Shown in pieces: positions 18,419-64,000 of a stretch of 64,000 bases of DNA. The position numbers and the translations under genes are program-made. The notes beneath the pieces were generated by a model, which was not told the DNA's origin, made no database searches, and saw only the letters and a list, made by a program, of their open reading frames with translations. Every line of letters starts with the position of its first letter. Within the stretch, counting starts at the first letter, position 1. Where the stretch lies: assembly GCA_018663865.1 (NCBI GenBank), contig JABJPM010000025.1, positions 9,024-73,023 of the forward strand, written 5' to 3'. The stretch comes from Candidatus Woesearchaeota archaeon. GTDB taxonomy: Archaea; Nanobdellota; Nanobdellia; SCGC-AAA011-G17; PNOQ01.

Positions 18419-18933
18419 TTTACGAACCAGCAGAAGATTCATACTTACTTCAAAAACAAGTAGAGAAATTTATAAAAAAAGAAATGGATGTTTTAGATAT
18501 TGGCACAGGATCAGGAATCCAAGCATTGACCGCAAAAAAACAAGGGGCAAATGTTATTGCAGCAGACATTAACTCAGAATGTGTAACTCACGTAAACAAA
18601 TTAGGAATAAAAACGCTACAATCGGATTTATTTGAAAATATAACTGGAAAATTTGATTTAATAATTTTCAATCCACCATACCTTCCAGAAGATGAAAGAG
18701 AGCCAGAAGATTCAAAACTAGTTACCACTGGTGGAAAAAAGGGTAATGAAATTCTTGCAAGATTTTTGGCAGGGGCAAAAGATTATTTGAAAGAAGATGG
18801 AAAAATTTTGATAGTATTCAGTTCATTAACTCCGGATGTAGATCAATTAGTGGAAGAGAATAAATTTACTTTTGAAAAAATTTCAGAACAAAAAATAGAT
18901 TTTGAAAAATTAATAGTTTATGAATTAACCTAG
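18415..18933 (+). CDS. HemK/Mtq2-like SAM-dependent methyltransferase (protein N5-glutamine methyltransferase family).
   Basis: VLDIGTGSGI (SAM motif I) and FNPPYLP (NPPY motif) are present. 172 aa, the size of archaeal Mtq2. Confidence 0.7.
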   Translation: MIYEPAEDSYLLQKQVEKFIKKEMDVLDIGTGSGIQALTAKKQGANVIAADINSECVTHVNKLGIKTLQSDLFENITGKFDLIIFNPPYLPEDEREPEDSKLVTTGGKKGNEILARFLAGAKDYLKEDGKILIVFSSLTPDVDQLVEENKFTFEKISEQKIDFEKLIVYELT

Positions 18934-39777: not shown

Positions 39778-39871
39778 GAGTTAGTTAATGGTGCATTATT
39801 TATATATCTAATCTCGGTGTTTGGCAAGCGTAGAAACATTTATAAATAAAACATTGTCCTCAGAATCTACG

Positions 39872-49551: not shown

Positions 49552-50856
49552 ATGTTAGCTAATAGGATTTTAATAAGGGATGCACTGGTAAAAAACCCAT
49601 CTTCTGAAGCAGTAGTTTCAGGATGGATAAAACAAATAAAACCTTTGGGAAAATTAATTTTTATAACTTTAAGGGATAGATCTGGCGAGATACAATTAAT
49701 TGCAAAAAAAGAACTGGACAATTTCAAAGTTCTTTCAAAAGTCACAAGGGAATCTTCACTAGTATTTAAAGGGAATATTCAAGAAAGTAAACAAAAATCA
49801 GGTGGAAACGAATTAGAAATAAAAGATTTTGAAATTTTAAATCAAGCAGAAACCCCCTTGCCAATAGATGTAGGGGCAGGAACTTCAAATATCGATAAAA
49901 GATTAGATCATAGATTTTTAGATACTAGGGAAGAAAAAATAAATGCAATTTTCAAGATAAGGAGCAAAATATACAAATTAACAACAGATTTTTTCGACGA
50001 TAATGATTTCACAAACATAACTACTCCAAAAATAACAAGTGCAGGAGTAGAATCTGGGGCAGAATTATTTGAGATGAAATATTTCAATAAAAAAGCATAT
50101 CTTTCTCAAAGTCCACAAATATACAAACAAATGTTTGTTGCAGGCGGATTCGAAAGAGTATATGAGTTGGCACCAGTTTTCAGGGCAGAGAATAGTAACA
50201 CAACAAGGCACCTAACTGAATTTACTGGAATAGATATGGAAATGGGGTTTATACAAAGCGAATCAGATGTAATGGATGTCATAGAAGAATTATTCAAATT
50301 TATTTTGAACAAATTAAAAAAAGAATGCAAAAGGGAACTAGAATTATTGGGGGTAAATCCTATTGTTCCAAAAAAAATACCTCGGTTATCAATGAAAGAA
50401 GTAAAAGAGATGCTCTCTGAAAAAGGGAAATCACTTTTAGAATCAGATGATCTAGATTCAGAAGCAGAATCAATAATTGGAAAAATAATAAAAGAAAAAT
50501 ACAATGAGGAATTTGTTTTTGTAACAAATTATCCGTGGGAGATTAGGCCCTTCTATCATATGAAACCAGAAGATGATAAAAATGGAACAAAATCTTTTGA
50601 TTTGATTTGGAATGGGGTGGAGATCGCAACCGGTGCACAAAGAGAGCATCGTTATAATATATTAAAAGAACAAGCAAAAGAAAAAGGAATAAATTTAGAT
50701 GAGATGGAATCCTATGCGGAAATTTTCAAATTTGGTTGTCCACCTCACGGAGGGATCGGGCTTGGTCTAGACAGGATGGTTCAAAGATTATTAAATTTAG
50801 ATAATGTTCGAGAGGCAATATTGCTCCCAAGAGATCCGGAAAGGTTAACACCCTAG
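49552..50856 (+). CDS. aspS: Aspartyl-tRNA synthetase (class IIb).
   Basis: An N-terminal OB anticodon-binding domain is present. The AspRS-specific QSPQ flipping-loop (LSQSPQIYKQ), the FRAE motif 2 and the GLGLDR motif 3 are present. 434 aa. Confidence 0.8.
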   Translation: MLANRILIRDALVKNPSSEAVVSGWIKQIKPLGKLIFITLRDRSGEIQLIAKKELDNFKVLSKVTRESSLVFKGNIQESKQKSGGNELEIKDFEILNQAETPLPIDVGAGTSNIDKRLDHRFLDTREEKINAIFKIRSKIYKLTTDFFDDNDFTNITTPKITSAGVESGAELFEMKYFNKKAYLSQSPQIYKQMFVAGGFERVYELAPVFRAENSNTTRHLTEFTGIDMEMGFIQSESDVMDVIEELFKFILNKLKKECKRELELLGVNPIVPKKIPRLSMKEVKEMLSEKGKSLLESDDLDSEAESIIGKIIKEKYNEEFVFVTNYPWEIRPFYHMKPEDDKNGTKSFDLIWNGVEIATGAQREHRYNILKEQAKEKGINLDEMESYAEIFKFGCPPHGGIGLGLDRMVQRLLNLDNVREAILLPRDPERLTP

Positions 50857-50893: not shown

Positions 50894-52192
50894 ATGGAAT
50901 ATTTATCAATAGAAAAAACATTTGAGAAAAAAGGAACAGTGAAAGTAAGAGGGTGGATACACCGAATTAGAAAAATGAAAGATAAGGTTTTTATTGTTCT
51001 TAGGGATTCTTCAGATGTTATTCAATGTGTGGTGAAAGATCCAGAAATAGTAAAGATTGCAGATGAATTATTGGTTGAAAGCTCATTAGAAATTGAAGGT
51101 AAAATTTACGAAGAAAAAAGGGCCCCAACTGGATATGAAATAGAAGTTTCAAAATTAAATATTGTACATCCTGCAGAGGATTTCCCAATAGGCAAAGATC
51201 AAAGTCCAGAATTTTTATTAGATCAAAGACATTTATGGTTAAGGTCAAGAAAAATGACTGCCATAATGAAAATCAGGAGTACAATTTTTGGCGCAATTCA
51301 CGAGTATTTTAGAAAAGAGGGATTTTATGAACATCAATCTCCGACTATGTTGGGTGCAGCAGGAGAAGGAGGATCATCAGTTTTTGAAGTAAATTACTTT
51401 GGAAAAAAGATCTATCTTGCACAAACTTGGCAATTACATGCAGAGGCAATGATGTTTGCATTGGAGAAAATATATACCCTTGCACCCTCATTTAGAGCAG
51501 AAAAATCATCAACTTCTAGACATTTAACAGAATATTGGCATGCAGAAATGGAAGTTGCATGGTGCAATTTCAAAGATTTACAAGACCATGTTGAAAAATT
51601 AGTAAAACACATTGTAAATAATGTCCTAAAAGAAAATAAAAAAGAATTAGAATTATTGAAGAGGGATTTAAAAACATTGGAAGCAACATCAAAAAAATCA
51701 TTTCCAAGAATGACATATGATGAAGTTTTAGAATTACTAAAAGAAAAAGCAGATTTGAAGATTCCTTGGGGAAAAGACCTTAGGACAATAGAGGAAGATA
51801 AATTATCTGCTTTATTCGATACCCCTGTAATTGTAACTGATTATCCTAAAAAAGTTAAAGCTTTTTACATGAAGGAATCTCCAGAAACTATAGATAAACC
51901 AGAAAATAAGAAAACTGTACAGGGATTCGATTTGATCGGCCCAGAAGGATATGGTGAATTAGTTGGGGCTTCACAGAGGGAAGAAAATATTGAAATAATA
52001 AAAGATAATCTAACAAAGGAAGGAGAGGATTTAAAAAATTATGAATTTTATCTTGATACTAGAAGATATGGTTCAATCCCTCACGGCGGTTTTGGGATGG
52101 GGGTAGAGAGGGTAATCTCCTGGATATGTGGATTAGATAATATAAAAGATGCAATCGCGTTTCCACGAACAATGACGCGGATGTCGCCATAG
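50894..52192 (+). CDS. asnS: Asparaginyl-tRNA synthetase (class IIb).
   Basis: It is a paralog of AspRS with AQTWQ in place of QSPQ, plus FRAEKSSTSRHLTEYWHAEMEVA and GFGMGVER. 432 aa. tRNA-Asn lies 38 nt downstream. Confidence 0.75.
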   Translation: MEYLSIEKTFEKKGTVKVRGWIHRIRKMKDKVFIVLRDSSDVIQCVVKDPEIVKIADELLVESSLEIEGKIYEEKRAPTGYEIEVSKLNIVHPAEDFPIGKDQSPEFLLDQRHLWLRSRKMTAIMKIRSTIFGAIHEYFRKEGFYEHQSPTMLGAAGEGGSSVFEVNYFGKKIYLAQTWQLHAEAMMFALEKIYTLAPSFRAEKSSTSRHLTEYWHAEMEVAWCNFKDLQDHVEKLVKHIVNNVLKENKKELELLKRDLKTLEATSKKSFPRMTYDEVLELLKEKADLKIPWGKDLRTIEEDKLSALFDTPVIVTDYPKKVKAFYMKESPETIDKPENKKTVQGFDLIGPEGYGELVGASQREENIEIIKDNLTKEGEDLKNYEFYLDTRRYGSIPHGGFGMGVERVISWICGLDNIKDAIAFPRTMTRMSP

Positions 52193-52423: not shown

Positions 52424-53614
52424 ATGGAAAAATTTAAAGAATTAAATATAGGAAAATCAATATTGCAAGCTTTGCAAGAAGAAGGATTCGAAACTCCGAC
52501 GGAGATTCAAGAAAAATCCATCCCTTCTGCAATTGCAGGAAAAGATTTATTGGCTGGATCTGCAACAGGTTCAGGAAAGACATTAGCATTTGGAGCAGGA
52601 ATAATTCAAAACTCAGTAAAGGGTAATGGTATTCAAGCTCTAATTTTGACGCCGACAAGAGAATTAGCTCAACAAGTTAAAGAAGCATTAAAAAAATTCT
52701 CAAAACATAAACCTCTAACAATTTCAGCAGTTTATGGTGGGATGCCAATTGACCGGCAATTCAGAAGACTTAGAATTGCAGATATTGTAGTTGGAACTCC
52801 AGGAAGAGTCCTAGATCACATTAAAAGAAAAACAATAAAATTAAACAATGTAAAAACTTTAGTTTTAGATGAAGCAGATAGAATGCTTGATATGGGATTT
52901 ATAGACGATGTTGAGAGAATAATAAAAAGTGTACCAAATGAAAGGCAAACATTATTATTTTCTGCAACAATCCACGGGATGGTTGCAAACATAATAGAAA
53001 AATATCTAAATGATCCTGTAAAGATTGAAGTGCAATCTCATGTAGATCCAGCAAAATTAATACAAGGTTATTATGACGTTCCAGATCAATTGAAGTTTTC
53101 ATTATTAGTGCATTTACTAAAAGCAGAAACTTCTGGTTTAGTGATGGTATTTTGTAATACTAGGCACAACACTGATTTTGTTGCGAACAATTTAAAGGGA
53201 TTAGGAATACCTGCGGAAGCAATCCATGGTGGATTCACACAGGGAAAACGAAATAAAATCCTTGAAAGATTCCATTCTCAAAAAGTTTTAACATTGGTCT
53301 GTACTGATGTTGCAGCAAGAGGATTGGACATACCAAACATTTCTCACGTATATAATTATGATCTTCCAATAGATCCTAAGGATTACGTACACAGAATTGG
53401 GAGGACCGCAAGGGCAGGGAAAGAAGGGATTGCAGTAAACATTCTTGCATCTCGAGACCACGACAATTTCGGAAGAGTTTTAAAAGAAAATAAAATTAAA
53501 ATTCCGAAATTAGAAATGCCGCGGATTGAAAGAATAGAATTAAATTGGAGAGCCAAACCTAAAAAGTTCGGCGGCGGAGGCGGCAGCGGAGGGGGAAGAG
53601 GGCGGAGACGTTAA
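52424..53614 (+). CDS. DEAD-box ATP-dependent RNA helicase with a C-terminal Gly/Arg-rich tail.
   Basis: The Q-motif, GSGKT, PTRELA, DEAD, SAT, RGLDIP and HRIGRTARAG motifs are present. The tail is GGGGGSGGGRGRRR. 396 aa. Confidence 0.9.
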   Translation: MEKFKELNIGKSILQALQEEGFETPTEIQEKSIPSAIAGKDLLAGSATGSGKTLAFGAGIIQNSVKGNGIQALILTPTRELAQQVKEALKKFSKHKPLTISAVYGGMPIDRQFRRLRIADIVVGTPGRVLDHIKRKTIKLNNVKTLVLDEADRMLDMGFIDDVERIIKSVPNERQTLLFSATIHGMVANIIEKYLNDPVKIEVQSHVDPAKLIQGYYDVPDQLKFSLLVHLLKAETSGLVMVFCNTRHNTDFVANNLKGLGIPAEAIHGGFTQGKRNKILERFHSQKVLTLVCTDVAARGLDIPNISHVYNYDLPIDPKDYVHRIGRTARAGKEGIAVNILASRDHDNFGRVLKENKIKIPKLEMPRIERIELNWRAKPKKFGGGGGSGGGRGRRR

Positions 53615-55437
53615 TCTCCCCTCATAAAATCTTTCACATCTTCATAACTTCTAGCACCTTTCAAATTTATATGTTCAGGAAAATTTTTACGATAATTTCC
53701 CCACGCATACCGTTCATCTAAATAAATAATTATTCCTTTATCAGTTTCACTTCTAATACATCTTCCAGCATTTTGCATAATGGATGTAAATGCGGGCATA
53801 ATATAGGCATATTCCATTCCCTTGCCAAATCGCTCATCATAATATCTTGTCAGTTCCTTTATTTCCAAATCATTTCTAGCAAATGGCACCCCAACAATAA
53901 TTACACCCTTGAGTTTATCCCCATCAAGATCAATACTTTCTCCAAAGCTACCAGAACTAACCGCAAACAATGTAGCTCCTTTGTCTTTCATAGAAATAAA
54001 TTTTTTCAATATCAATTCTCTAGAATATTTGTCCATTCCAGGACTTTCAATAAATGTTTCTTCGTCTATATGTTCCAATACTTTGCCCATTATTGCATAA
54101 CTTGGAAAAAAGAAAATTTTGTTTCCATTGATTATCCCCATTAATTCCGAAACATGATGTGCAATTTTCTCATACATCTGACCATTCCTCTGATCAAATT
54201 TAGTAGAGATTGCAGGAACAACTAAATCTAACCTATTTTCTGCAGGGAATGGATTTGGATATTCCACTTTTAATGGTAACTTCAACCCAAACATCTCTTC
54301 ATACATTGTAAGGGGATAAAGAGTTCCACTCATAAAAATATTTGAATGTGATTCTTCCAAAATTGGATCGAGTACAATGCTAGGGTCAAGACAATTATAA
54401 AATAAACTAATAATTGGTTTCCCAGTTCTTGTAAAACTCCTTTTCAAAATTCTTGAAAATTTATCATTTTCTTTTTTCCATATTTGAAGAAAATTAACTA
54501 ATGAATTCAGATAACTTCGTTGTTCTTCCTCAACAACTTTGCTAGAAGTTTCATAAATTTTAGTAATCAGCTCATCATTTACAGAAATAAAATCATTTTT
54601 TGAAACAATAGTTTCATTTTTTTTCAATCCAAGTTTAGAACTCATATTTAATAGACTATTGCCGATTTCAACTATTTCTGGTTCAAGTTCCTGATTGAAT
54701 TTTCCTGCCTCTCGAACTGCAGAATCTAAACTTATTGTGCTAACATGTTCGCTCATCAAAGATCTTGCACGCGATGGAAGATTATGTGCTTCGTCCCAAA
54801 TCAAAATGCAATCTTTCAATTCCTTTCCGATTTTTTTAAAGAATCTCTCCCGCGTCCCAGAATTCAAAACATGAAAATAATCTAAAATTATAACTCTTGA
54901 TTTTTTTGCCAAATCCGATGCTGCCTCGAAACTACAAACCTCCGCATTACGACACTTATCTACAAGTTCATCAACATTCAATATATTGGTTTTTAATTCA
55001 TCAATTAATATCTTCTTTACGAATATTTTTTCTTTATTTCTATAGTTCTCATAATACTCGCATTCTTTATTCTCAACAACCGATTTACAAAATTCTCGAA
55101 ATTCCATGGAGTTCAAATTTGAAATATCCTCTCTTGGACACATCCATCGTTTCCCAATAAAATCCGCAACTTGAAAATTTATATCACTTTTTTCCTTTAT
55201 TTGTTTTAGAGTATCCACAACAACCTTGTGATGAGTATGTTTCGAAGTTAAAAAAAGTACAGTTTTATCATTTTCTATCGCATATTTTAATGAAGGAGCC
55301 AAAGTAGCAGCAGTTTTACCAACGCCAGTAGGGACTTGGGCCAATACATCTTTTTTATGGTTTAATGCGGTATTTACAACTCTAATGAAGGATTCCTGGC
55401 CCTTTCTATAGCTATCAAATGGAAATAAATCTTGCAT
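53611..55437 (-). CDS. xpd: XPD/Rad3-family 5'-3' DNA helicase with an Fe-S domain.
   Basis: PTGVGKT (motif I), DEAHN (motif II) and a Cys cluster in the insert (MCPRE...FCKS...KECE...) are present. I placed the start at MQDLFPFDSYRKGQ (55437). The track's 664-aa version has a hydrophobic, Cys-rich N-terminal extension that is unlikely to be real. Confidence 0.8.
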   Translation of the reverse strand: MQDLFPFDSYRKGQESFIRVVNTALNHKKDVLAQVPTGVGKTAATLAPSLKYAIENDKTVLFLTSKHTHHKVVVDTLKQIKEKSDINFQVADFIGKRWMCPREDISNLNSMEFREFCKSVVENKECEYYENYRNKEKIFVKKILIDELKTNILNVDELVDKCRNAEVCSFEAASDLAKKSRVIILDYFHVLNSGTRERFFKKIGKELKDCILIWDEAHNLPSRARSLMSEHVSTISLDSAVREAGKFNQELEPEIVEIGNSLLNMSSKLGLKKNETIVSKNDFISVNDELITKIYETSSKVVEEEQRSYLNSLVNFLQIWKKENDKFSRILKRSFTRTGKPIISLFYNCLDPSIVLDPILEESHSNIFMSGTLYPLTMYEEMFGLKLPLKVEYPNPFPAENRLDLVVPAISTKFDQRNGQMYEKIAHHVSELMGIINGNKIFFFPSYAIMGKVLEHIDEETFIESPGMDKYSRELILKKFISMKDKGATLFAVSSGSFGESIDLDGDKLKGVIIVGVPFARNDLEIKELTRYYDERFGKGMEYAYIMPAFTSIMQNAGRCIRSETDKGIIIYLDERYAWGNYRKNFPEHINLKGARSYEDVKDFMRGD

Positions 55438-55526
55438 CAAAGAATAACAATTGAGACATTTATAAAAACATAGGGACTCTAAACAAGGGAATATATTTAC
55501 TACTATTGAATAACAATAAATGGAAA

Positions 55527-55540
55527 CACTTATAAACCAA
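55527..55540 (+). promoter_or_regulatory. Putative BRE/TATA promoter element AACACTTATAAACC about 20 nt upstream of the 55558 ORF, which suggests a leaderless transcript.
   Basis: It is identical to the 14-mer at 52325-52338. Confidence 0.4.
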
Positions 55541-55557
55541 TTTAAGAATAATAAATT

Positions 55558-56067
55558 ATGAAAATATATCATTTTACTTCGGAACAGAATTGGAATCAGA
55601 TTCAAGAAGAATGGGCATTATTTCCCAGTTCCACCTATCGGAATATCTCCAATCATTTGGCACCACACCCTTCAATAGGCATATCAAGAATATATGGTTC
55701 TGGAATGAAACAATTTAATGTAGCATTGCAAAATGAAAGCGCATGGGAAGAATATGGATTATTAAAAACATTATTGAACCATACAACTGGAAAAATAAAA
55801 TTAGAATTAGATATGAAAAACAAAGAGGGAATTTTAGTTAGGGATCATGTTCATTTTTCACCAAAAAGAACAAAAGAATTGTATGGGGAGGATTTTTTCC
55901 ATGGATTAATTTCTGGTTCAAGTTCAAGAGATAATAAGGATCTGCATGATGCAATGGGAATGTACTATAATTCAACAATAAAATTAGAAGATTACAGTGG
56001 AAATTACAATGTTCCAGAGATTTGGATTCCCAACAGAATACCACTTTCAGAAATAATAGAAAGATAA
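55558..56067 (+). CDS. Hypothetical protein.
   Basis: 169 aa and globular-looking with Trp/His-rich, non-repetitive composition. No recognisable motif. A promoter-like element lies immediately upstream. Confidence 0.4.
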   Translation: MKIYHFTSEQNWNQIQEEWALFPSSTYRNISNHLAPHPSIGISRIYGSGMKQFNVALQNESAWEEYGLLKTLLNHTTGKIKLELDMKNKEGILVRDHVHFSPKRTKELYGEDFFHGLISGSSSRDNKDLHDAMGMYYNSTIKLEDYSGNYNVPEIWIPNRIPLSEIIER

Positions 56068-56068
56068 T

Positions 56069-56623
56069 TTATTTTTTTCTTAATCCAACAATATAAAATT
56101 CTTTACTTCTTTTTCTACTTCCAACCGGTTTAACAATTTTTGTAGTAAAAAAAGTTTTTTTAACCTCTTTAACAAATTTAGGAGAGAATTCACTTTGAAA
56201 TATTTTACAAACAAATTTACCATTTTTTTTAAGTACCTTTTTTGCAATCTCCAATGCCTTCATGCTAAGGTCATATGAATCCTCATTATCCAATGTGCGG
56301 ATACCAACTGTTTTTGGAGCAAGATCACTAAGAACAATGTCATACTCTTTTGAAATTTTTTCAAATAATGAATCAGAATAGATATCAACTTTTATCCAAT
56401 TGCCAAATTTAACTTCATTAACATCAACAGCATCAACTTTTGCACCCAATTCATCAACATATTGTGTCCAAGATCCGGGCGCGGCACCAAGGTCCAAAAC
56501 TTTATCTCCGGCCCTAATAACTTTAAATTTAGTTTGAATATCTTTTAGCTTATATACACTTCTTGCAAAATAACCTTCATATTTTGCCTTCCTAGTAAAT
56601 TTATCTCTTTGCATTATATCCAC
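56069..56623 (-). CDS. rlmE: FtsJ/RrmJ-type rRNA 2'-O-methyltransferase (RlmE-like).
   Basis: ARSVYKLKDI...VLDLGAAPGSWTQY...DIVLSDLAP matches the FtsJ K-D-K-E fold motifs. 184 aa. Confidence 0.85.
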   Translation of the reverse strand: MDIMQRDKFTRKAKYEGYFARSVYKLKDIQTKFKVIRAGDKVLDLGAAPGSWTQYVDELGAKVDAVDVNEVKFGNWIKVDIYSDSLFEKISKEYDIVLSDLAPKTVGIRTLDNEDSYDLSMKALEIAKKVLKKNGKFVCKIFQSEFSPKFVKEVKKTFFTTKIVKPVGSRKRSKEFYIVGLRKK

Positions 56624-57549
56624 TTCTTATATCTAAAGAATATAAAAAGTAATACTATGCTAAAAAACATAAATATTAGTGGTATAAAAAATCCATTTGG
56701 ATCATTATAGAAGGGGATTTTAGCAAAATTCATGCCCCATATTCCAGAAATCAACATAGGCAACAACAAAACAGATGCCAAAACTGTAAATGAGCGCATA
56801 ACATCATTTAAATTATTAGAAACCGAGGACATATGCATTTCAGAAATTCCCCTTATTTTCTCACCCTGATAACGGATCATATTTTCTGCTTGAGCAATTT
56901 CGACATGAGCACTATTTATGAAAATGTAATTTTTATCTGCAATAAATTTACTGGTTTTATTCAATAATTTATCTATAATCTCCAAATTTGAACTAATTGC
57001 CCTACCATAGCGAGATATTTGTTTTTTCAATGGAAAAATTTCATTAATATTATTCATTTTATTTTTTAAAACTTTATATTCAATCGCATCTAGCTTATCA
57101 TCAAAATCATTCAAATCCTTGTGCAAATTTCGGTTCATCTCAGAGACTATCTTATAGAATAAAAAATCAATTCCCCGCCCAAAGAATTCCGGACCTTCGG
57201 AAGTAAACATTATCTTAAAAAAGGTTGATATGGGTTTTAGAGGTTTAGCATGAATAGTAATTATAAAATTTTTACTTAAAAATATTCCAACTGGAACAGA
57301 ATTTTTCCCAATTAATGATCTAAAAACAATAAAAGAATATCGGTCCCTCGTTGATAATCTCGGAATTTCATTTTCATCTAAACTATCCACCAAATCTCGA
57401 GCATACAGTTTAAATTTATTTTTTAGTTTGTCTAATTCTTTCTCATTTGGAGATATAACATTGACCCAAACGCGATCTCTAATCAAATTAACTTTATCTA
57501 ATTCAACAGAGCTAGTTTTCTTTCCAGAATATTTAACACATTTAATCAT
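56614..57549 (-). CDS. corA: CorA-family Mg2+/Co2+ transporter.
   Basis: The C-terminal two transmembrane helices carry GMNF (WGMNFAKIP), and an acidic-loop soluble N-domain is present. I chose MIKCVKYSGKK (57549) as the start rather than the track's longer version. Confidence 0.8.
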   Translation of the reverse strand: MIKCVKYSGKKTSSVELDKVNLIRDRVWVNVISPNEKELDKLKNKFKLYARDLVDSLDENEIPRLSTRDRYSFIVFRSLIGKNSVPVGIFLSKNFIITIHAKPLKPISTFFKIMFTSEGPEFFGRGIDFLFYKIVSEMNRNLHKDLNDFDDKLDAIEYKVLKNKMNNINEIFPLKKQISRYGRAISSNLEIIDKLLNKTSKFIADKNYIFINSAHVEIAQAENMIRYQGEKIRGISEMHMSSVSNNLNDVMRSFTVLASVLLLPMLISGIWGMNFAKIPFYNDPNGFFIPLIFMFFSIVLLFIFFRYKKWI

Positions 57550-57618
57550 TACTCTAATTTTATTTTTTTTCTTTATAAATTTTCCTACCAATAGTCTTTT
57601 AAAGATAATTGTAAATAA

Positions 57619-57960
57619 ATGCCTATGCACGAGGGAATACATCATATTCAAAAAAGAAAAAGGACAAAGGGCAAGCATGAACCTTATCCTAGTAAAGATT
57701 TTTTAAAAAATATTTTAGATAGGGCGATTTATATTGCGGGAATTTTTGGGCTTGTAATGACCATCCCGCAAATATTAAAAATTTATGTAGAACAAAATGT
57801 TTCAGGAATTTCAGTTCTAACATGGGTTGCATATCTCCTAATGTCCCTGACTTGGGTAGCATACGGAATTGTTCACAAAGAAAAACCATTGATAATTACC
57901 TATTCGTTATGGGTAATAATGAAATTAGTAATTATTTTTGGAGTAATGTTATATAATTAA
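57619..57960 (+). CDS. Small PQ-loop/SemiSWEET-like 3-transmembrane membrane protein.
   Basis: 113 aa. A PQ motif lies in TM1 (VMTIPQILKIY) within a 3-transmembrane bundle of SemiSWEET size. Confidence 0.45.
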   Translation: MPMHEGIHHIQKRKRTKGKHEPYPSKDFLKNILDRAIYIAGIFGLVMTIPQILKIYVEQNVSGISVLTWVAYLLMSLTWVAYGIVHKEKPLIITYSLWVIMKLVIIFGVMLYN

Positions 57961-58681: not shown

Positions 58682-58747
58682 CATTACTTAAAAGTAGTAA
58701 AAATAGTAACATTTATAAATAAATAATTAATTTAGATAATACTAAAA

Positions 58748-59701
58748 ATGGATAAAGATAGTATTATTGCAACATATTCAAGGGATATCGCTAGATATGG
58801 CGGAATATTGGATGATTGTGAGCAAAAGGATTTGGCAGAATCAATCACATACAATAAATCCATTTCAAAAATTTATGCAAAGTCCCTAAACGATAAAAAT
58901 TTATCAATTAAATCCAGAGAAAGATTAAAATTAGAGTATGACGAAATAGAATCTAAAATTAATTCTGCAAGGGAAACATTAGCAATCACGAATTTACCAT
59001 TTGTAATTGCAAAAGCTAGAAAATTTGCCGGCAGGAATGTAGATATATTGGATCTAATCCAAGAGGGCAGCCTGAAACTTTATCAGAAAGCAACAGATAT
59101 GTATGATCCAAATCATTCTTCAAATTCAAAGTTTATATCTTATGCAGGATGGTGGGTAGATCATTCAATGCGTAGGACCCTTTCGAATCAATCTAGACAT
59201 ATTAGGTTACCAGTGCATGCAAGTGATCTAGAAAGAAAAATAAAATTATTCACAGATAATTTTGTGAATGAAAATCTAAGGGCGCCAAGTTCAGAAGAAA
59301 TTTCAGAAGGAATTGAAGAAAAACTAAAAAAAGTAAATGAAATGCAAATTAATGAAAGATTGAGAGATACCTTGAGTTTAGATTATCAAGGAGATAATGA
59401 CCATTCCACATTATTAGATACCATTTCTTACGATCCTCAGCAGGAGATGGATGGACAAATGAATTTTCACCAAGCAGGGATAATTGAAAAATTATTAAAA
59501 ACCGCAAAATTAACTGAAAAAGAAAGACTAATTATAGATGACAGATTTGGACTGGAATCTGGAAACGCACGTACATTGGCAGAAGTTGGTGATGAATTAA
59601 AATTGACAAGAGAAAGAATTCGCCAAATTGAAACGATGTCCTTAAAGAAATTAAAAAGGGCAGCAAAAAAAATGAATTTGAATTTTGAAGATTTGTTCTA
59701 A
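58748..59701 (+). CDS. Sigma-70 family RNA polymerase sigma factor (bacterial type), with regions 2, 3.0 and 4 present.
   Basis: Region 2 is LPFVIAKARKFAGRNVDILDLIQEGSLKLYQKATDMYDP...FISYAGWWVDHSMRRTLSNQSRHIRLPVHA (compare bacterial LDLIQEGNIGLMKAVDKFD...F.TYA.WWIRQAI...RTIRIPVHM). Region 4.2 is LTEKERLIIDDRFGLESGNARTLAEVGDELKLTRERIRQIETMSLKKLK. 317 aa. Its AT-richness is like its neighbours. Confidence 0.8.
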   Translation: MDKDSIIATYSRDIARYGGILDDCEQKDLAESITYNKSISKIYAKSLNDKNLSIKSRERLKLEYDEIESKINSARETLAITNLPFVIAKARKFAGRNVDILDLIQEGSLKLYQKATDMYDPNHSSNSKFISYAGWWVDHSMRRTLSNQSRHIRLPVHASDLERKIKLFTDNFVNENLRAPSSEEISEGIEEKLKKVNEMQINERLRDTLSLDYQGDNDHSTLLDTISYDPQQEMDGQMNFHQAGIIEKLLKTAKLTEKERLIIDDRFGLESGNARTLAEVGDELKLTRERIRQIETMSLKKLKRAAKKMNLNFEDLF

Positions 59702-60367: not shown

Positions 60368-60745
60368 TTATGAGTCTCCCCATAATCCATGTAGATTGCA
60401 ATATGCTCTTACTCCGAAACTAGAATCCACATTATCAAATATTGCTTCTGGATTTTGCCCAGGTTTAAGCTGTTTCCTATAAACTCTATCCTCTGTTAAT
60501 AACTCAATCCATTCTATGTAATGATCTTCATCCATTGGATGATCGATTGATCCAACCCTAACACGGATGCTATTTTCTATTTTTTCAATTATGGGGACAT
60601 GTTTTTCCTCTGCAGCATCCTCATTATTTTCCTTCATTTCAATCATCGGCTTACCACAACAAAATAATGGAACTGGCGCACTATGCAAAATTTCAACGAG
60701 ATTCCCACATGTCGGACATTTATATATTTGATTTATTTCTGTCAT
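60368..60745 (-). CDS. dfx: Desulfoferrodoxin-type superoxide reductase (2Fe-SOR).
   Basis: An N-terminal desulforedoxin-like domain (YKCPTCGN...FCCGKPM) is followed by a C-terminal neelaredoxin domain (EEKHVPII...HPMDEDHYIEWIEL...AYCNLHGLWG). 125 aa. Confidence 0.85.
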   Translation of the reverse strand: MTEINQIYKCPTCGNLVEILHSAPVPLFCCGKPMIEMKENNEDAAEEKHVPIIEKIENSIRVRVGSIDHPMDEDHYIEWIELLTEDRVYRKQLKPGQNPEAIFDNVDSSFGVRAYCNLHGLWGDS

Positions 60746-60813
60746 TTTATATTCTCCTTATCAAAACAATTCATACTTAAATCTTTCTAAAAATAAAAAA
60801 AAATAAAAAAAAA

Positions 60814-61032
60814 TTAACAAGCCGATGTGCTATAGTGTAATTTTTTGATACCAACCAAAATTAACACGATTGCAAAAACTTGTGTAAGATTCAAATACCC
60901 GAACCATAAAATCAAACCTAATAATATTGATATTATGCCTCTAAATGCAAAAGCACCTTTGCCAGAATGACAACCTACTGCACAAGTATTACTTTCTTTT
61001 TTAACAACTTTTTTTCTTTTTTTAGCAACCAT
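60814..61032 (-). CDS. Small 2-transmembrane membrane protein with an N-terminal basic/Cys segment.
   Basis: 72 aa: MVAKKRKKVVKK...CAVGCHSGKGAFAFRGIISILLGLILWFGYLNLTQVFAIVLILVGIKKL. It lies upstream of dfx in the same orientation. Confidence 0.45.
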   Translation of the reverse strand: MVAKKRKKVVKKESNTCAVGCHSGKGAFAFRGIISILLGLILWFGYLNLTQVFAIVLILVGIKKLHYSTSAC

Positions 61033-61045
61033 TTTTCACCTCCGT

Positions 61046-61207
61046 TTATTTAGCAAAAATTCCCCAAAAGATTTTAGAAAATCCAGCTATGAACAATAGC
61101 AATGCAAATAGTTGTTCTAATGTCAATATCGCGCTCCATAATGCCCAGCCCAATATTAATGAAACTATTCCTGCAAAAATTAATCCAGACCTAGCCCTAG
61201 AACCCAT
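61046..61207 (-). CDS. Small 2-transmembrane membrane protein, a paralog of the adjacent 72-aa protein.
   Basis: Manual translation gives MGSRARSGLIFAGIVSLILGWALWSAILTLEQLFALLLFIAGFSKIFWGIFAK, 53 aa. It aligns with the previous protein as G-I-[IV]-S-[LI]-[IL]-L-G-x-x-L-W-...-L-x-L-x-Q-x-F-A. It is not in the ORF track because it is under 60 aa. Confidence 0.4.
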   Translation of the reverse strand: MGSRARSGLIFAGIVSLILGWALWSAILTLEQLFALLLFIAGFSKIFWGIFAK

Positions 61208-61328
61208 CCCTTTTTTCTTAACCATTAAATATCACCCTCCTATCCTAATTTTTATTTTTTCTATTTAAATACTTTTTCCTAGAATATATATAATCAATTG
61301 GGACAATCTTTAAAATAAGATCAAACAT

Positions 61329-62174
61329 TTGATATACATGGCCCAAAGAATACAAAGTCCAAGTTCAATAAATACTTTCAAACAATGTCAAAGAAAGTAT
61401 TACTATCAATATATTCTAAAGTTGGCACAAAAGGTGCCATCAATCCATTTACAAAGAGGAAAAATAGTTCATGAGGCACTGGAAGACTTATTCAAGATAG
61501 ACATTTCCAACATGGACAAAGAATATTACGAATTCGAGTTAAAAACACTATTACAAAGTCTATTCAAACAAAAATGGACAGCAGAAAAAAAAGAGTTAGA
61601 CAGAATTGGGATGACTCCGGAACAATTAGAATTTTATTTCAGAGAATCTCTTTATATGGTGAACAATTGGTTTAGAAATTTTATGAAAATCCTGGGCCCA
61701 AAAGTTGAAAAAGAAGGCCTAGTCGAAGGATTCAATCATGTTAAACCAAAAACAGAAGTATATTTTCTATCTGAAGAACATCAAGTAAGGGGATTCATTG
61801 ACGCAATTCATGAGATTGACGGGGAAGTATCGTTAATGGATTACAAAACCTCAAAGAGAGAAAAAATGAGTCCGGAGTATCGGTTACAACTTGCGATATA
61901 TGCTTTACTCTATGAGGAAAAATATGGAAAAAAGCCGCAATTGGTGGGGATAGATTTTCTAAGGCATAAACAACATTACTTGGATGTGGACCAAGATTTG
62001 GTGGATTTTGCAAAATTAGAATGTAAGTTTATTCAAGAGCAAACAATTTCTGAAGATATTTCAGATTATTCAAGAAAGAAAACTCCCCTATGCAATTATT
62101 GTGATTTTCAAGATGTATGTTTTGGACAGAAAACAATGGACGAATTCATAGCAGAAAATGGACCTAATAGATAA
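61329..62174 (+). CDS. Cas4/RecB-family PD-(D/E)xK nuclease (DUF83-like) with a C-terminal Fe-S cysteine cluster. It is stand-alone, with no CRISPR locus nearby.
   Basis: An N-terminal Cys (FKQCQRKYYYQYI) and the motifs GFIDAIH...DGEVSLMDYKTSK (D...D/ExK) and QLAIYALL (QxxxY) are present. The C-terminus is CNYCDFQDVC. 281 aa. Confidence 0.75.
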   Translation: MIYMAQRIQSPSSINTFKQCQRKYYYQYILKLAQKVPSIHLQRGKIVHEALEDLFKIDISNMDKEYYEFELKTLLQSLFKQKWTAEKKELDRIGMTPEQLEFYFRESLYMVNNWFRNFMKILGPKVEKEGLVEGFNHVKPKTEVYFLSEEHQVRGFIDAIHEIDGEVSLMDYKTSKREKMSPEYRLQLAIYALLYEEKYGKKPQLVGIDFLRHKQHYLDVDQDLVDFAKLECKFIQEQTISEDISDYSRKKTPLCNYCDFQDVCFGQKTMDEFIAENGPNR

Positions 62175-62736: not shown

Positions 62737-64000
62737 TTATATCTTATATTTCGCAATTAAAGTAGAGGCTAACTTCCCATCAACCTTGCCAGAATATTTT
62801 TTCATTACTTCGCCCATTAATGCACCCATGCTCAAATCTTTATTTTTCTCAACAAGTGTTTTAATTTCTTTTTCTAATTTTGAATCATCAACTGGAGAAT
62901 AATTTTTCAAATTAATTTTTCTTCCTTCTGCAATATCTTTGAAAATATTAATCACCGAATCTTTTGTGATTTTTTTCAATTCTAATGCATTCAAAACAAG
63001 TCTGAAATCATTCTCACAAAATTCATGTTCTAACTTATATCTGGATTTAATATCTTTCGGAATTTCAACAAGAATATTCGAAATCAACTTTATATCTAGA
63101 TTGTACTGATAATCATCCAAATTAAATCCTGCTTTAACTAAGCCCCTGGATAAGGATGGATTCAATCCAAGTTTTTCATATTCCAAAATTTTATTATCGA
63201 TCAACTCAGAAACTTTTACCTCATCCAACAATCTCTTATCAATAATTATTGGTTTGACATCGGTTTCAGGATACATCCTGGATGCACCCGGCATTGGTCG
63301 CATAAATGTGGTTGTTCCATCAGGATTAGCGCCACGGACTTCAGGTTTAACTTTTATTTTTAATTGCCTCTTAATTTCCCCATCAATTATCTTGGGAATA
63401 TTTTTCAAATCCTGAAAACCTTTTATTTCAACTCTTTCACCATTCTTTATTGAAACGTTAACATCTTGCCTTATCACTCCGATCCCTCTTTTCACCTTTC
63501 CAGTACTTCGAAGAATCATTCCAAGTTTTTCTGCAGTTTCTTTACACTGAGTTGGATTTTTTATATCTGGACAAGTGGCAATTTCAACAAGGGGAATGCC
63601 CAATCTATCTAATCTATAAATGATTGATTTTTCTTTGTTAGTCTTAGTAGACAAAATTTTTCCAACTCTTCTTGCAGAATCTTCTTCTAAACAAACACTA
63701 TCAATTCCAACCCTGCCATGAGAGGTTTCTAAATATCCGCCCTGCCCAACCAACATGGTCCTTTGGAACCCGGAAGTATTACTTCCATTCACCACAGTTT
63801 TCCGCATAACTTGAATTTCATTAACAACATCACAGTTAAGCATCTTACAAATTTCTAATGTTATTTCTAATGCATTTTTGTTTAAATCATGAGGGGGCTC
63901 TTCATCAAATTCAACAGAACAAGTACTATCCGAATATCCCTCGTAGGTAAACTCTAATTCTTTATCTCTTTCATGTTTTGCAGCGATATCAATTTCCCCT
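62737..64000 (-). CDS. GatB/GatE-family aminoacyl-tRNA amidotransferase subunit. Only the C-terminal portion is in the window, and the gene continues beyond position 64000.
   Basis: The cradle-domain pattern GIGVIRQDVNVSIKNGERVEIKG is present, with a C-terminal GatB/YqeY-like helical domain (...LMGEVMKKYSGKVDGKL...). The reading frame stays open upstream to the window edge. Confidence 0.7.
   Translation of the reverse strand, partial: GEIDIAAKHERDKELEFTYEGYSDSTCSVEFDEEPPHDLNKNALEITLEICKMLNCDVVNEIQVMRKTVVNGSNTSGFQRTMLVGQGGYLETSHGRVGIDSVCLEEDSARRVGKILSTKTNKEKSIIYRLDRLGIPLVEIATCPDIKNPTQCKETAEKLGMILRSTGKVKRGIGVIRQDVNVSIKNGERVEIKGFQDLKNIPKIIDGEIKRQLKIKVKPEVRGANPDGTTTFMRPMPGASRMYPETDVKPIIIDKRLLDEVKVSELIDNKILEYEKLGLNPSLSRGLVKAGFNLDDYQYNLDIKLISNILVEIPKDIKSRYKLEHEFCENDFRLVLNALELKKITKDSVINIFKDIAEGRKINLKNYSPVDDSKLEKEIKTLVEKNKDLSMGALMGEVMKKYSGKVDGKLASTLIAKYKI

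What the first reader, a model, noticed from the sequence alone, without database searches (positions are those of the whole stretch)
58748..59701. Bacterial-type sigma-70 factor gene embedded in an unmistakably archaeal contig
The 317-aa product carries sigma-70 regions 2.1-2.4, 3.0 and 4.2 with near-canonical motifs: DLIQEGSLKLY, a WW-containing -10 recognition segment, HIRLPVHA, and TLAEVG...LTRERIRQIE. The rest of the window is archaeal: rpoP, spt5, tfe, orc1, L37ae/L40e/L15e and aIF5A. Archaea transcribe with TBP/TFB/TFE and have no sigma-dependent RNAP, so a native-looking sigma gene is highly unexpected. Its AT content and codon style match its neighbours, so it is not a freshly transferred island. 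It could be an ancient transfer that has been repurposed, for example as a DNA-binding regulator or an anti-TFB-like factor. It could also be an assembly chimera. The gene sits between a ZIP transporter and endonuclease III, with no anti-sigma or bacterial RNAP genes nearby.
Basis: partly seen in the sequence, partly recalled or inferred. Interest (0 to 1): 0.85.

Follow-up and report, generated by a model that had tools for sequence, protein, structure and literature searches.

The report
Bacterial-type sigma factor in Woesearchaeota
A real bacterial-style sigma-70 transcription factor gene is natively encoded in this DPANN (Woesearchaeota) archaeal genome; such genes have been published since 2013 and again in 2021, and what the protein does in a cell that transcribes with TBP/TFB/TFE is still unknown.

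Summary
ORF 58748-59701(+) encodes a 317-aa sigma-70 family protein with regions 1.2, 2, 3 and 4 and a SigA-like predicted fold. The 64-kb window is clearly archaeal (TFE, Spt5, RpoP, Orc1/Cdc6, aIF5A, L15e, L37ae, diphthamide synthase, Nre).

It is not a chimera. The identical protein occurs on at least 22 contigs from independent assemblies with the same gene order. Orthologues at 52-68% identity keep the ZIP-sigma-Nth synteny.

It is not new. The exact protein is in NCBI as [quoted passage not shown]. Archaeal sigma factors were described by Rinke et al. 2013 and, for Woesearchaeota, by Castelle et al. 2021.

What I add:
- The archaeal copies form one clade (NJ bootstrap 88%).
- Sigma is the fastest-evolving protein in its block (dN about 2-8x its neighbours, omega 0.19-0.32).
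- It has an archaeal TATA promoter with a conserved upstream element.
- Its sigma-4.2 (-35-reading) helix and sigma-2.2 LIQ motif are invariant, but the -10 melting/recognition residues have changed.
- Related lineages carry a second, FliA-like sigma in tandem.
- Bacterial-type promoters are not enriched.

Most likely it is an anciently acquired, domesticated sigma with a non-canonical regulatory role. The mechanism is unproven.

The parts
58748..59701 (+). Sigma-70 family gene (317 aa plus stop), group 1/2-like architecture without region 1.1
   Evidence: ORF; Pfam r2/r4 above cutoff; NCBIfam full-length RpoD/SigA-type match; AF2 model with pLDDT 79 whose best Foldseek hits are SigA chains in RNAP holoenzyme structures, E about 1e-12
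58760..58852 (+). Region 1.2-like N-terminus (aa 5-35; D.I..Y.RDI....IL...Q..LA.SI)
   Evidence: Alignment to TIGR02997 from profile position 3 and to E. coli sigma70 residues about 94-127. Q (E. coli E116) and A120 are invariant in all 10 archaeal copies.
58967..59197 (+). Sigma region 2 (aa 74-150): NLPFVI (2.1), DLIQEGS (2.2), MYDPNHSSNSKF insertion loop, YAGWW (2.3), VDHSMRR (2.4)
   Evidence: Pfam r2 81-150. Residue map: N383, L404-I405-Q406, F427, Y430, W434 and R441 are kept. N409->S, R423->S, Y425->S and R436->D in the window-type subclade. W433 is lost in P0003/P0004/P0143.
59234..59431 (+). Sigma region 3 (aa 163-228), including the 3.2 finger SLDY...LLDTISYD
   Evidence: Pfam r3 at 19.7 bits, sub-threshold. 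Helices predicted, with the 3.2 linker at low pLDDT as is usual for free sigma. S506-L-D508 and D521 invariant; G520->L and F522->T.
59504..59656 (+). Sigma region 4 (aa 253-303), with HTH recognition helix LTRERIRQIE
   Evidence: Pfam r4 at 1e-13. R584, E585, R588, Q589, I590 and E591 are invariant in the nine archaeal copies that have region 4 (P0148 lacks it); R586 is also kept in the four window-type orthologues.
59657..59698 (+). C-terminal tail ...KKLKRAAKKMNLNFEDLF; the most conserved segment within the window-type subclade
   Evidence: Pairwise identity 0.70, the highest of all regions. NLNFED[LI][FI] is shared by W, P0002-4 and P0143, and L..ED is shared by the whole archaeal clade.
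58712..58719 (+). TTTATAAA: candidate archaeal TATA box, 36 nt upstream of the sigma ATG
   Evidence: TTTAWA peaks at -27..-32 from the ATG in 19 of 50 window genes, the archaeal leaderless-promoter pattern; sigma has its box at -36.
58684..58711 (+). Conserved upstream element TTACTTAAAAGTAGTAAAAATAGTAACA (TTACT-N7-AGTAA-N4-AGTAA) directly upstream of the TATA box; candidate regulator-binding site
   Evidence: Near-identical in W, L004, L001 and in L012/L207, where sigma sits in a different genomic context. Unique in the window. No Rfam match. Identity over -66..-21 is 0.80-0.91 among window-type loci, against 52-68% aa identity for the CDS.

Best explanation
SHOWN. This is a native, vertically inherited gene of a Candidatus Woesearchaeota (DPANN) archaeon. 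It encodes a full-length sigma-70 family protein of group 1/2 type (regions 1.2-2-3-4, no 1.1). It descends from a single old transfer of a bacterial RpoD-like gene into this archaeal lineage. It is fully ameliorated and has an archaeal TATA-box promoter with a conserved upstream element. It is kept intact under purifying selection, although it evolves about 2-8 times faster than its neighbours.

INFERRED. It no longer works as a canonical bacterial initiation factor. The genome uses archaeal promoters and archaeal basal factors, no bacterial RNAP is seen, and the -10 melting/recognition module has changed at positions that are nearly invariant in bacteria. The parts that resist the fast divergence are the sigma-4.2 recognition helix (R584/E585/R588/Q589), the sigma-2.2 LIQ core-binding motif, the hydrophobic/aromatic core of 2.3, and the 3.2 SLD...D motif.

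My best guess for the mechanism is a regulated, sequence-specific DNA-binding transcription regulator that reads a -35-like element through sigma-4. It probably still needs the whole multi-domain sigma scaffold and may touch the archaeal RNAP.

The identity and native status are near certain. The mechanism is a hypothesis.
For: Identity.

Archaeal host. Organism label Candidatus Woesearchaeota for the identical protein (P0121) and for the window's own FtsZ and Spt5 clusters.

Not a chimera, and vertical inheritance: the identical protein is on at least 22 contigs (41 index blocks) with identical synteny, including NCBI GCA_018647965.1. Orthologues at 68/56/52% identity sit in the same ZIP-sigma-Nth-Dfx slot. 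More distant members P0294/P0295 sit in the same slot. P0143 is in another fully archaeal context.

Single clade: all 10 archaeal RpoD-like copies are exclusive of 113 bacterial sigmas, NJ bootstrap 88/100, and they share indels.

Amelioration.

Selection: omega 0.19-0.32 vs 0.02-0.13 for annotated neighbours, dN 0.21-0.36 vs 0.03-0.13. W vs L248: neighbours 67-85% identical, sigma 34%.

Archaeal promoter.

No sigma-type promoter excess: 96 vs 98.7 +/- 8.9.

Residue pattern. Constraint is spread over all domains, with region-wise pairwise identity 0.46-0.70.
Against: There is no direct evidence of expression, DNA binding or any partner. Fast evolution, mosaic loss of canonical motifs (IRIPVH -> IRLKGQAH and TRERIRQIE -> TREWARQIE in L248 sig1) and a naturally truncated copy lacking sigma-4 (P0148, three samples) could also mean that the function is weak, lineage-specific or being lost. 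No TTGACA-type target motif was found. The conserved upstream element is not a -35/-10 promoter, so autoregulation is unsupported. Only 64 kb of the genome was seen, so a bacterial-type RNAP or partner elsewhere in the genome cannot be formally excluded from my data alone. The woesearchaeal RpoA' clamp coiled-coil differs at the three beta' residues where single substitutions abolish sigma70 binding in E. coli (R275->I, E295->L, A302->H; the mutational data are from my own knowledge of Arthur et al. 2000). This argues against a ready-made canonical docking site.
Confidence: 0.55

Rival explanations
1. RNAP-docking modulator. The sigma binds the archaeal RNAP itself (sigma-2.2 on the Rpo1N clamp coiled-coil, sigma-4 on the flap/wall region). 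It competes or cooperates with TFE/Spt5/TFB, giving a hybrid bacterial-archaeal initiation or regulatory step.
For: The LIQ motif (including Q406, a principal beta' clamp-helix contact), the 3.2 SLD...D motif and L607/F610-equivalent C-terminal residues are retained through very fast divergence. Constraint is spread over sigma-2, sigma-3 and sigma-4 rather than over one HTH only. The clamp coiled-coil is the universal docking site for sigma-2, TFE and Spt5 (established knowledge). TFE and Spt5 are encoded in the same window.
Against: The woesearchaeal clamp coiled-coil is only 14/48 identical to E. coli beta' 262-309 and differs at R275, E295 and A302. N409->S in sigma-2.2. No complex prediction or binding data are available. 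The truncated P0148 lacks sigma-4.
Confidence: 0.2
2. Decaying relic. The gene is an old transfer that has lost its function and is drifting towards loss, and the intact ORF is incidental.
For: It is the fastest-evolving protein in the block. Different canonical motifs are eroded in different subclades. There is a truncated 230-aa variant. The second sigma is present in some lineages and absent from this locus in the window.
Against: Nine full-length intact ORFs of 316-322 aa (plus the truncated P0148) persist although dS exceeds 1 between the lineages compared. Omega is 0.19-0.32, well below 1. Forty positions are invariant, and they are concentrated in functional motifs. The promoter with its upstream element is conserved and even follows a relocated copy. 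Codon usage is well adapted.
Confidence: 0.15
3. Canonical sigma serving a bacterial-type RNAP, either an undetected one in the same cell or that of a bacterial partner or host.
For: The complete sigma architecture, the intact -35-reading helix and the partly intact core-binding helix. In related lineages an RpoD-like and a FliA-like sigma sit in tandem, reminiscent of a bacterial sigma hierarchy.
Against: No bacterial RNAP subunit in 64 kb. Woesearchaeota carry an ordinary archaeal RpoA'. Window promoters are archaeal TATA type. There is no -35/-10 excess. R436->D, Y425->S and W433 loss affect promoter melting/recognition positions that are 100% conserved in the bacterial set, except Y425, where F/Y alternate. 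Castelle et al. 2021 report TBP/TFB/TFE and no anti-sigma factors in these genomes. No secretion signal was looked for, and the context is housekeeping.
Confidence: 0.05
4. Assembly chimera, mis-binned bacterial DNA, or a mobile/viral/defence (MZA-like) cargo gene.
For: The best non-archaeal relatives are bacterial RpoD. There are generic hits to MzaA.
Against: The same junctions were recovered by independent assemblies and assemblers in ENA, JGI, Logan and NCBI. Composition and codon usage are typical of the window. No relatives were found in 2.9 million viral contigs. The MzaA match covers only its C-terminal sigma domain (428-660 of 683; 152 bits vs cutoff 800), with no Mza partner genes. 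The flanks are housekeeping genes with no integrase next to the gene.
Confidence: 0.02

Closest known systems
Archaeal (DPANN) sigma-70 homologues reported by Rinke et al. 2013 and Castelle et al. 2021 (their protein family fam00359, prevalent in Woesearchaeota)
   Same: A bacterial-type sigma-70 family protein on contigs with archaeal marker genes, in Woesearchaeota, with no anti-sigma factor, coexisting with TBP/TFB/TFE-type machinery, function unknown.
   Different: Nothing essential; this gene is an instance of that published phenomenon. I could not confirm formal membership of fam00359 because the supplement holds no searchable entry.
Bacterial group 2 / compact group 1 sigma factors (RpoS, cyanobacterial SigA-E type, SigA of Firmicutes/Actinobacteria)
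   Same: Length of about 320 aa, regions 1.2-2.1-2.4-3.0-3.2-4.1-4.2 in order, no region 1.1. Best HMM and PDB matches are to RpoD/SigA/RpoS. Predicted fold superposes on SigA in holoenzyme structures. The -35-reading residues are identical.
   Different: Only 33-40% identical to any bacterial sigma and below all equivalog cutoffs. Substitutions at near-invariant bacterial positions: N409S, K418M, R423S, Y425S, R436D, G520L, F522T. A 2-residue insertion between regions 2.2 and 2.3 and a clade-specific C-terminal tail NLNFEDLF. The host has an archaeal RNAP and archaeal promoters.
RpoD of Omnitrophota and other uncultured bacteria (nearest bacterial relatives of the less-derived archaeal subclade)
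   Same: P0144, a less-derived member of the archaeal clade, is 44-47% identical over about 73% of its length to RpoD proteins, several of them labelled Candidatus Omnitrophota. This is a hint at the donor group.
   Different: Those are 500-550 aa primary sigmas with regions 1.1/1.2 (PF03979, PF00140) in bacterial genomes. The donor inference rests on hit lists, not on a taxon-labelled phylogeny.
Nuclear-encoded plastid sigma factors (SIG1-SIG6) of plants and algae
   Same: Sigma-70 family genes of bacterial origin maintained in a non-bacterial genome (own knowledge).
   Different: Plastid sigmas serve a retained bacterial-type polymerase (PEP). No such polymerase is known or seen here.
FliA/WhiG (group 3) sigma factors, relevant to the tandem second gene in related loci and not to the window gene itself
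   Same: L248 sig2 (274 aa) best matches TIGR02479 FliA_WhiG at 1.4e-31 with regions 2 and 4.
   Different: 110 bits vs a cutoff of 189.6. Archaeal host, no flagellar context. No close relatives were found by the word-index search. Absent from this locus in the window.

Membership tests
Sigma-70 family (Pfam Sigma70_r2/r3/r4; NCBIfam TIGR02937) | Region 2 domain above the curated threshold | tested here: met
   PF04542 at 37.7 bits vs cutoff 24, aa 81-150
Sigma-70 family (Pfam Sigma70_r2/r3/r4; NCBIfam TIGR02937) | Region 4 HTH domain above the curated threshold | tested here: met
   PF04545 at 51 bits vs cutoff 24.1, aa 253-303
Sigma-70 family (Pfam Sigma70_r2/r3/r4; NCBIfam TIGR02937) | Region 3 domain | tested here: inconclusive
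   PF04539 at 19.7 bits, below cutoff 25.3. The region does align within full-length RpoD/SigA models and is helical in the model.
Sigma-70 family (Pfam Sigma70_r2/r3/r4; NCBIfam TIGR02937) | Whole-protein superfamily cutoff and sigma fold | tested here: met
   TIGR02937 at 76.8 vs 42.9. Foldseek top 50 hits are all sigma chains (SigA, sigma-S, sigma70), nearly all within RNAP complexes, E down to 1.2e-12.
Sigma-70 family (Pfam Sigma70_r2/r3/r4; NCBIfam TIGR02937) | Binds RNAP core and confers promoter-specific initiation | not testable with these tools
   Needs biochemistry. Only indirect residue conservation is available.
Primary (group 1) sigma RpoD/SigA | Scores above the RpoD/SigA equivalog or subfamily cutoffs | tested here: not met
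   TIGR02393 at 165.7 vs 354; TIGR02997 at 172.1 vs 384.5; PRK05658 at 147.8 vs 555
Primary (group 1) sigma RpoD/SigA | Region 1.1 / N-terminal extension | tested here: not met
   The protein starts at region 1.2. No PF03979 or PF00140 hit, unlike the bacterial hits.
Primary (group 1) sigma RpoD/SigA | Near-invariant -10 recognition/melting residues (K418, Y425 aromatic, W433, R436, Q437, T440) | tested here: not met
   K418M, Y425S, R436D, Q437H and T440R in the window protein. W433 is kept here but lost in P0003/P0004/P0143.
Primary (group 1) sigma RpoD/SigA | -35 recognition residues R584, E585, R586, R588, Q589 | tested here: met
   All identical in the window protein and its three close orthologues. 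R584/E585/R588/Q589 are invariant in all nine archaeal copies that have region 4.
Published DPANN/Woesearchaeota archaeal sigma factors (Rinke 2013; Castelle 2021 fam00359) | Sigma-70 gene on a contig whose co-encoded informative proteins are archaeal (Woesearchaeota) | tested here: met
   Archaeal markers throughout the window. NCBI labels the identical protein and the window's FtsZ/Spt5 as Candidatus Woesearchaeota archaeon.
Published DPANN/Woesearchaeota archaeal sigma factors (Rinke 2013; Castelle 2021 fam00359) | Listed in the authors' family fam00359 | not tested
   The held supplementary files contain no match to 'fam00359' or 'sigma'. Rinke et al. 2013 is not held.
MzaA (MZA anti-phage system sigma) | Full-length match including the roughly 430-aa N-terminal part, plus Mza partner genes | tested here: not met
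   The match covers only profile positions 428-660 of 683 (PADLOC) and 459-710 of 726, at 152.5 bits vs cutoff 800. The neighbours are ZIP, Nth, Dfx and CorA.

The most novel reading that the evidence does not exclude
The acquired sigma has been wired into archaeal transcription. It docks on the archaeal RNAP (sigma-2.2 on the Rpo1N clamp coiled-coil, the site used by TFE and Spt5) and uses its intact sigma-4.2 helix to read a -35-like DNA element. That would create a hybrid bacterial/archaeal promoter-selection or regulatory step. Its very fast evolution would then reflect co-adaptation to the new polymerase surface. In sister lineages, the tandem RpoD-like and FliA-like pair would form a small archaeal 'sigma switch'.
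Probability: 0.15. Interest if true: 0.85.

Novelty: already known. Interest (0 to 1): 0.4.

Why it matters
Sigma factors are regarded as the defining initiation factors of Bacteria, and papers still state that archaea lack them (for example PMC12316311). A sigma that has been kept intact for a long time in an archaeon must either have found a new partner or have become a stand-alone regulator. Either outcome would show how far the bacterial and archaeal transcription machineries, which share a homologous RNAP clamp, remain interoperable. It would also show how DPANN archaea integrate the many bacterial genes they carry.

The existence of such genes is already published, so the value of this locus is practical. 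It offers a well-sampled orthologue series: ten archaeal sequences, conserved synteny, a defined archaeal promoter, and a clear map of which sigma surfaces are conserved and which are lost. That material can guide binding, DAP-seq and complex-prediction experiments.

Tried and rejected
1. TTGACA depletion as a footprint of sigma-4 activity. The raw count looked striking (20 vs 45.5 +/- 6.8 in dinucleotide shuffles). It disappears under a 4th-order Markov null (21.0 expected). Under a synonymous-codon shuffle it is unspecific (z = -2.0, while control hexamers range from -4.7 to +6.1). Rejected.

2. Enrichment of -35/-10 promoter pairs: none (96 vs 98.7 +/- 8.9).

3. A regulon for the conserved upstream element: no further copies in the window. 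The public 17-mer scans returned mostly chance hits. Two Woesearchaeota hits lie inside the rpoA' coding sequence, encoding MAVVKIVTPE. The element is not an Rfam RNA. Its conservation is also not unique, because several neighbouring promoters are equally conserved between W and L001.

4. Peptide-pattern scan of GTDB species representatives for the clade: no hit, although a later DNA scan found one representative (L207).

5. Viral contigs: no relatives.

6. Defence-system membership (MzaA): only the generic sigma domain matches.

7. Intermediate-scoring hits P0005, P0145-P0147 and P0150 contain internally duplicated sigma segments and look like bacterial sigmas with assembly duplications, not archaeal intermediates.

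8. Literature: no functional or expression study of an archaeal sigma was found. Rinke 2013 is not held, and the Castelle supplement is not searchable for the family.

9. The search for relatives of the second (FliA-like) sigma found nothing close.
Full report

Yes. An ATG-initiated ORF lies at 58748..59701 (+) and encodes 317 aa with the quoted motifs. Pfam finds Sigma70_r4 (1e-13) and Sigma70_r2 (1.8e-9) above their gathering scores. Sigma70_r3 falls just below its gathering score (19.7 vs 25.3 bits).

NCBIfam aligns the protein over nearly its whole length with RpoD/SigA-type models (TIGR02997: protein 7-303 to profile 3-298 of 298, 1.6e-50; RpoD_Cterm 1.3e-48). The score exceeds the sigma-70 superfamily cutoff and is far below every equivalog cutoff.

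By sequence, the closest solved structures are RpoS, SigA and RpoD chains of RNAP holoenzymes. An AlphaFold2 model (mean pLDDT 79, with a low-confidence 3.2 linker as expected for a free sigma) retrieves SigA chains as its best Foldseek hits (E about 1e-12). The architecture is regions 1.2-2-3-4 without 1.1, which makes it group 1/2-like.

**2. Is the contig archaeal, and is the junction real?**

About 70 window ORFs were scanned with Pfam. They include:
- TFE-alpha, Spt5-NGN/KOW, RpoP (borderline score), Orc1/Cdc6 and aIF5A;
- ribosomal L15e, L37ae, P0 with the archaeal/eukaryotic insert, and P1;
- diphthamide synthase, ZPR1, Nre, XPD with an HBB domain, wyosine synthesis, prefoldin and SecE/Sec61-gamma.

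No bacterial RNAP subunit or anti-sigma family appeared. The sigma's GC (0.319), GC3 (0.236) and codon usage are typical of the window; its codon-usage distance is in the 10th percentile.

The exact protein (P0121) is indexed in 41 blocks of the public collection, and 22 contigs were read. The six places shown, from ENA, JGI and NCBI GCA_018647965.1, all have the same gene order. Orthologues at 68%, 56% and 52% identity occupy the same ZIP-sigma-Nth-desulfoferrodoxin slot in independent samples. A chimera or mis-binned fragment is therefore excluded.

NCBI already names the identical protein [quoted passage not shown]. The window's FtsZ and Spt5 clusters carry the same organism label.

**3. 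Is it new?**

No. Castelle et al. 2021 (PMC8204110) report sigma-70 genes in DPANN archaea, "particularly prevalent in Woesearchaeota". They rule out mis-binning, note the absence of anti-sigma factors and the presence of TBP/TFB/TFE, and call the mechanism unclear. A review attributes the first description of archaeal sigma factors to Rinke et al. 2013 (PMC6126073). From my own knowledge, that paper's abstract mentions complete sigma factors in Archaea similar to those in Bacteria; the paper itself is not in the library. I found no functional or expression study.

**4. What the related sequences add**

*A very small family.* An exhaustive profile search of 1.84 billion representatives shows a tiny family: P0143, P0144 and the fragment P0148 score above the bacterial continuum. 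A word-index search from P0144 adds P0293-P0295.

*A single clade.* In a neighbour-joining tree, all ten archaeal RpoD-like sequences form one clade that excludes 113 bacterial sigmas. Bootstrap support is 88/100, and 100/100 for the window-type subclade. They share a 2-residue insertion between regions 2.2 and 2.3, and all but the truncated P0148 share an L..ED C-terminal tail. This points to a single acquisition followed by vertical descent. The nearest bacterial relatives of the less-derived subclade are RpoD proteins, several labelled Omnitrophota, at 44-47% identity. That is a hint about the donor, not a result.

*Very fast evolution.* Sigma is by far the fastest-evolving protein in its syntenic block.

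| Comparison | Neighbours (aa identity) | Sigma (aa identity) | dN neighbours | dN sigma | omega neighbours | omega sigma |
|---|---|---|---|---|---|---|
| W vs L001 | 78-94% (annotated genes) | 57% | 0.04-0.13 | 0.31 | 0.02-0.13 | 0.28 |
| W vs L248 | 67-85% | 34% (positional counterpart) | not computed | not computed | not computed | not computed |

Mean distance within the archaeal clade (0.99) exceeds that among the sampled bacterial primary sigmas (0.77). Even so, the nine full-length copies are intact ORFs of 316-322 aa, omega is well below 1, and identity is spread fairly evenly over all regions (0.46-0.70). The gene is under purifying but relaxed, or partly diversifying, selection. dS is saturated (about 1.1), so absolute omega values are rough; the comparison with neighbours is the robust part.

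*What is conserved and what is lost.* I mapped the sequences to E. coli sigma70 numbering. The reference sequence was recalled from memory, and its length and 20 landmark residues were verified.
- Invariant in all archaeal copies: N383, L404-I405-Q406 (the sigma-2.2 contact to the beta' clamp helices), F427, Y430, W434, R441, S506-L-D508, D521, R562/G564, and R584, E585, R588, Q589, I590 and E591 of the sigma-4.2 recognition helix.
- Changed at positions that are 87-100% conserved in the bacterial set: N409S, K418M, R423S, R436D (all four window-type orthologues), G520L and F522T. Y425 (an aromatic F or Y in bacteria) is S. W433 is lost in P0003, P0004 and P0143. Q437 and T440, which read -12, vary.
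- The other subclade has eroded different motifs: IRIPVH -> IRLKGQAH and TRERIRQIE -> TREWARQIE in L248.
- P0148 is a 230-aa form without sigma-4, found in three samples.

So the -35-reading surface and part of the core-binding helix are the most durable features. The -10 melting/recognition module has drifted.

*Archaeal promoters around and in front of the gene.* TTTAWA peaks at -27..-32 from the ATG in 19 of the 50 genes with an upstream gap of at least 30 nt. That is the signature of TATA boxes on leaderless mRNAs. Sigma has TTTATAAA at -36 (58712-58719). Sigma-70-type -35/-10 pairs are not enriched (96 vs 98.7 +/- 8.9).

*A conserved upstream element.* Directly upstream of the sigma TATA box lies TTACTTAAAAGTAGTAAAAATAGTAACA (58684-58711). 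It is nearly identical in all window-type loci, including L012/L207, where the gene sits in a different, equally archaeal context of proteasome, aCPSF1 and CCA-adding enzyme. It is unique in the window and matches no Rfam family. Its conservation (0.80-0.91) is comparable to that of several neighbouring promoters, so it is not exceptional in itself. It contrasts with the divergent CDS, and it moved together with the gene. The gene is therefore expressed, and probably regulated, by archaeal machinery.

*A second sigma in sister lineages.* In the lineages carrying P0294 and P0295, the same slot holds two sigma genes overlapping by 4 bp: the RpoD-like one and a 271-274-aa FliA/WhiG-like one (TIGR02479, 1.4e-31). 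They sit among oxidative-stress and metal genes (Ogg, Nth, EncFtn/rubrerythrin, AhpC, SOD, FUR, ZIP, CorA). The window lineage has only the first gene at this locus.

**5. How it most likely works**

*Shown:* it is a native, anciently acquired, ameliorated sigma-70 family gene, selectively maintained and driven by an archaeal promoter.

*Inferred:* it does not act as a canonical sigma, for four reasons.
- The genome's promoters and basal factors are archaeal.
- No bacterial polymerase is in sight.
- Bacterial promoter pairs are not enriched.
- The -10 module has changed.

The sigma-4.2 recognition helix is the best-preserved functional surface, and all domains remain constrained. My best guess is a regulated, sequence-specific regulator that reads a -35-like element and still needs the whole sigma scaffold.

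Whether it also docks on the archaeal RNAP is open. In favour: the LIQ motif and the 3.2 SLD...D motif are retained, and the clamp coiled-coil is the shared docking site of sigma-2, TFE and Spt5. Against: a woesearchaeal RpoA' (L212) is only 14/48 identical to E. coli beta' 262-309 and differs at R275 (I), E295 (L) and A302 (H). Those are positions where single substitutions abolish sigma70 binding in E. coli. The segment and its numbering were verified; the mutational data are from my own knowledge.

A slowly decaying relic remains a serious rival (about 0.15). A canonical role with a bacterial RNAP is unlikely (about 0.05). An artefact, mobile-element or defence origin is effectively excluded.

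**6. Dead ends**

The apparent twofold depletion of TTGACA vanished under stricter nulls. No regulon was found for the upstream element. Most public 17-mer matches were chance. Peptide scans of GTDB representatives and viral contigs found nothing.

**7. Verdict**

The phenomenon is published and the protein is already annotated, so novelty is "already known".

The residual interest lies in the unresolved mechanism and in details that make it testable: a single clade, extreme evolutionary rate, mosaic retention of sigma surfaces, an archaeal promoter with a conserved operator-like element, and a tandem FliA-like partner in sister lineages.

Interest 0.4. The hybrid sigma/archaeal-RNAP reading has a probability of about 0.15 and would merit about 0.85 if true.

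Noticed in passing
L248:10948-11772 (+), the JGI 117.6-kb contig, and L011:1633-1986: In sister Woesearchaeota lineages the RpoD-like sigma is followed, with a 4-bp overlap, by a second sigma of FliA/WhiG type (271-274 aa; TIGR02479 1.4e-31, below cutoff). This tandem archaeal 'sigma pair' is absent from the window's locus. The second sigma has no close relatives by word-index search.
   Followed up: partly
L015:427-1119, L016:327-1019, L017:318-1010: P0148 is a naturally truncated member of the archaeal sigma clade: 230 aa, ending inside region 3.2, with no sigma-4. It was recovered in three different samples and still carries R436. It may be a pseudogene in the making, or evidence that sigma-4 is dispensable in some lineages.
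   Followed up: partly
window 15370-15386 (-), 17905-17921 (+), 39819-39829 (-): The motif GCTTGCCAAAC has 3 exact and 2 one-mismatch copies, against 0.8 expected (0 of 100 shuffles reach 5). The three exact copies sit about 13 nt upstream of a TATA box. Two are extended to TTGACAGCTTGCCAAAC and flank the orc1/cdc6 region in inverted orientation. It is a candidate transcription-factor site or origin-recognition box.
   Followed up: partly
L195:2690-2720 (Candidatus Pacearchaeota MAG; same sequence as L096) and L128: The 24-nt core of the sigma upstream element (TAGTAGTAAAAATAGTAACATTTA) plus a TATA box also precedes unrelated small genes: a 117-aa Cys-rich ORF in a Pacearchaeota genome and an ORF in L128. 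This is either a chance match (about 1 expected among the 17-mer hits) or a promoter/operator module shared among DPANN.
   Followed up: partly
window-wide, upstream of 50 genes: There is a sharp positional peak of TTTAWA at -27 to -32 from start codons (19 of 50 genes). This implies that mRNAs in this Woesearchaeote are predominantly leaderless or near-leaderless.
   Followed up: yes
window 30566-33193 (+): The leucyl-tRNA synthetase carries the PF13603 editing domain (6e-67), which as far as I recall is typical of bacterial-type LeuRS. It is possibly another bacterial-derived gene in this genome, in line with the 'hybrid proteome' described for DPANN.
   Followed up: no
window 18925-19629 (-) and 19631-20320 (-): Two tandem PlsC-type acyltransferase genes (PF01553), a family associated with bacterial-type ester phospholipid synthesis. 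This is unusual for an archaeon and was not examined further.
   Followed up: no
window 60368-61337 compared with L001:11661-16400, L004:1926-3960 and L248:12424-17650: The oxidative-stress/metal cluster next to sigma varies by lineage. The window keeps only desulfoferrodoxin. Relatives add peroxiredoxin AhpC and a FUR-family regulator (L001, L004), or Fe/Mn-SOD, EncFtn/rubrerythrin and Ogg (L248), and some insert an ABC/MacB transporter. The persistent linkage of sigma with redox and metal genes may be functional or may simply reflect synteny.
   Followed up: partly
window 53611-55605 (-) and 56614-57678 (-): The mechanical ORF starts are too long. Orthologues show XPD as 607-608 aa (not 664) and CorA as 311 aa (not 354), so the real starts are near 55437 and 57549.
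   Followed up: yes
window 49552-50856 (+), 50894-52192 (+), 62737-63843 (-): Two adjacent class-II AspRS/AsnRS-type synthetase paralogues lie in the same block as a GatB/GatE-type amidotransferase subunit. The window's GatB ORF is 368 aa against 469-471 aa in relatives, so either the start lies beyond the listed ORF or the gene is truncated.
   Followed up: no
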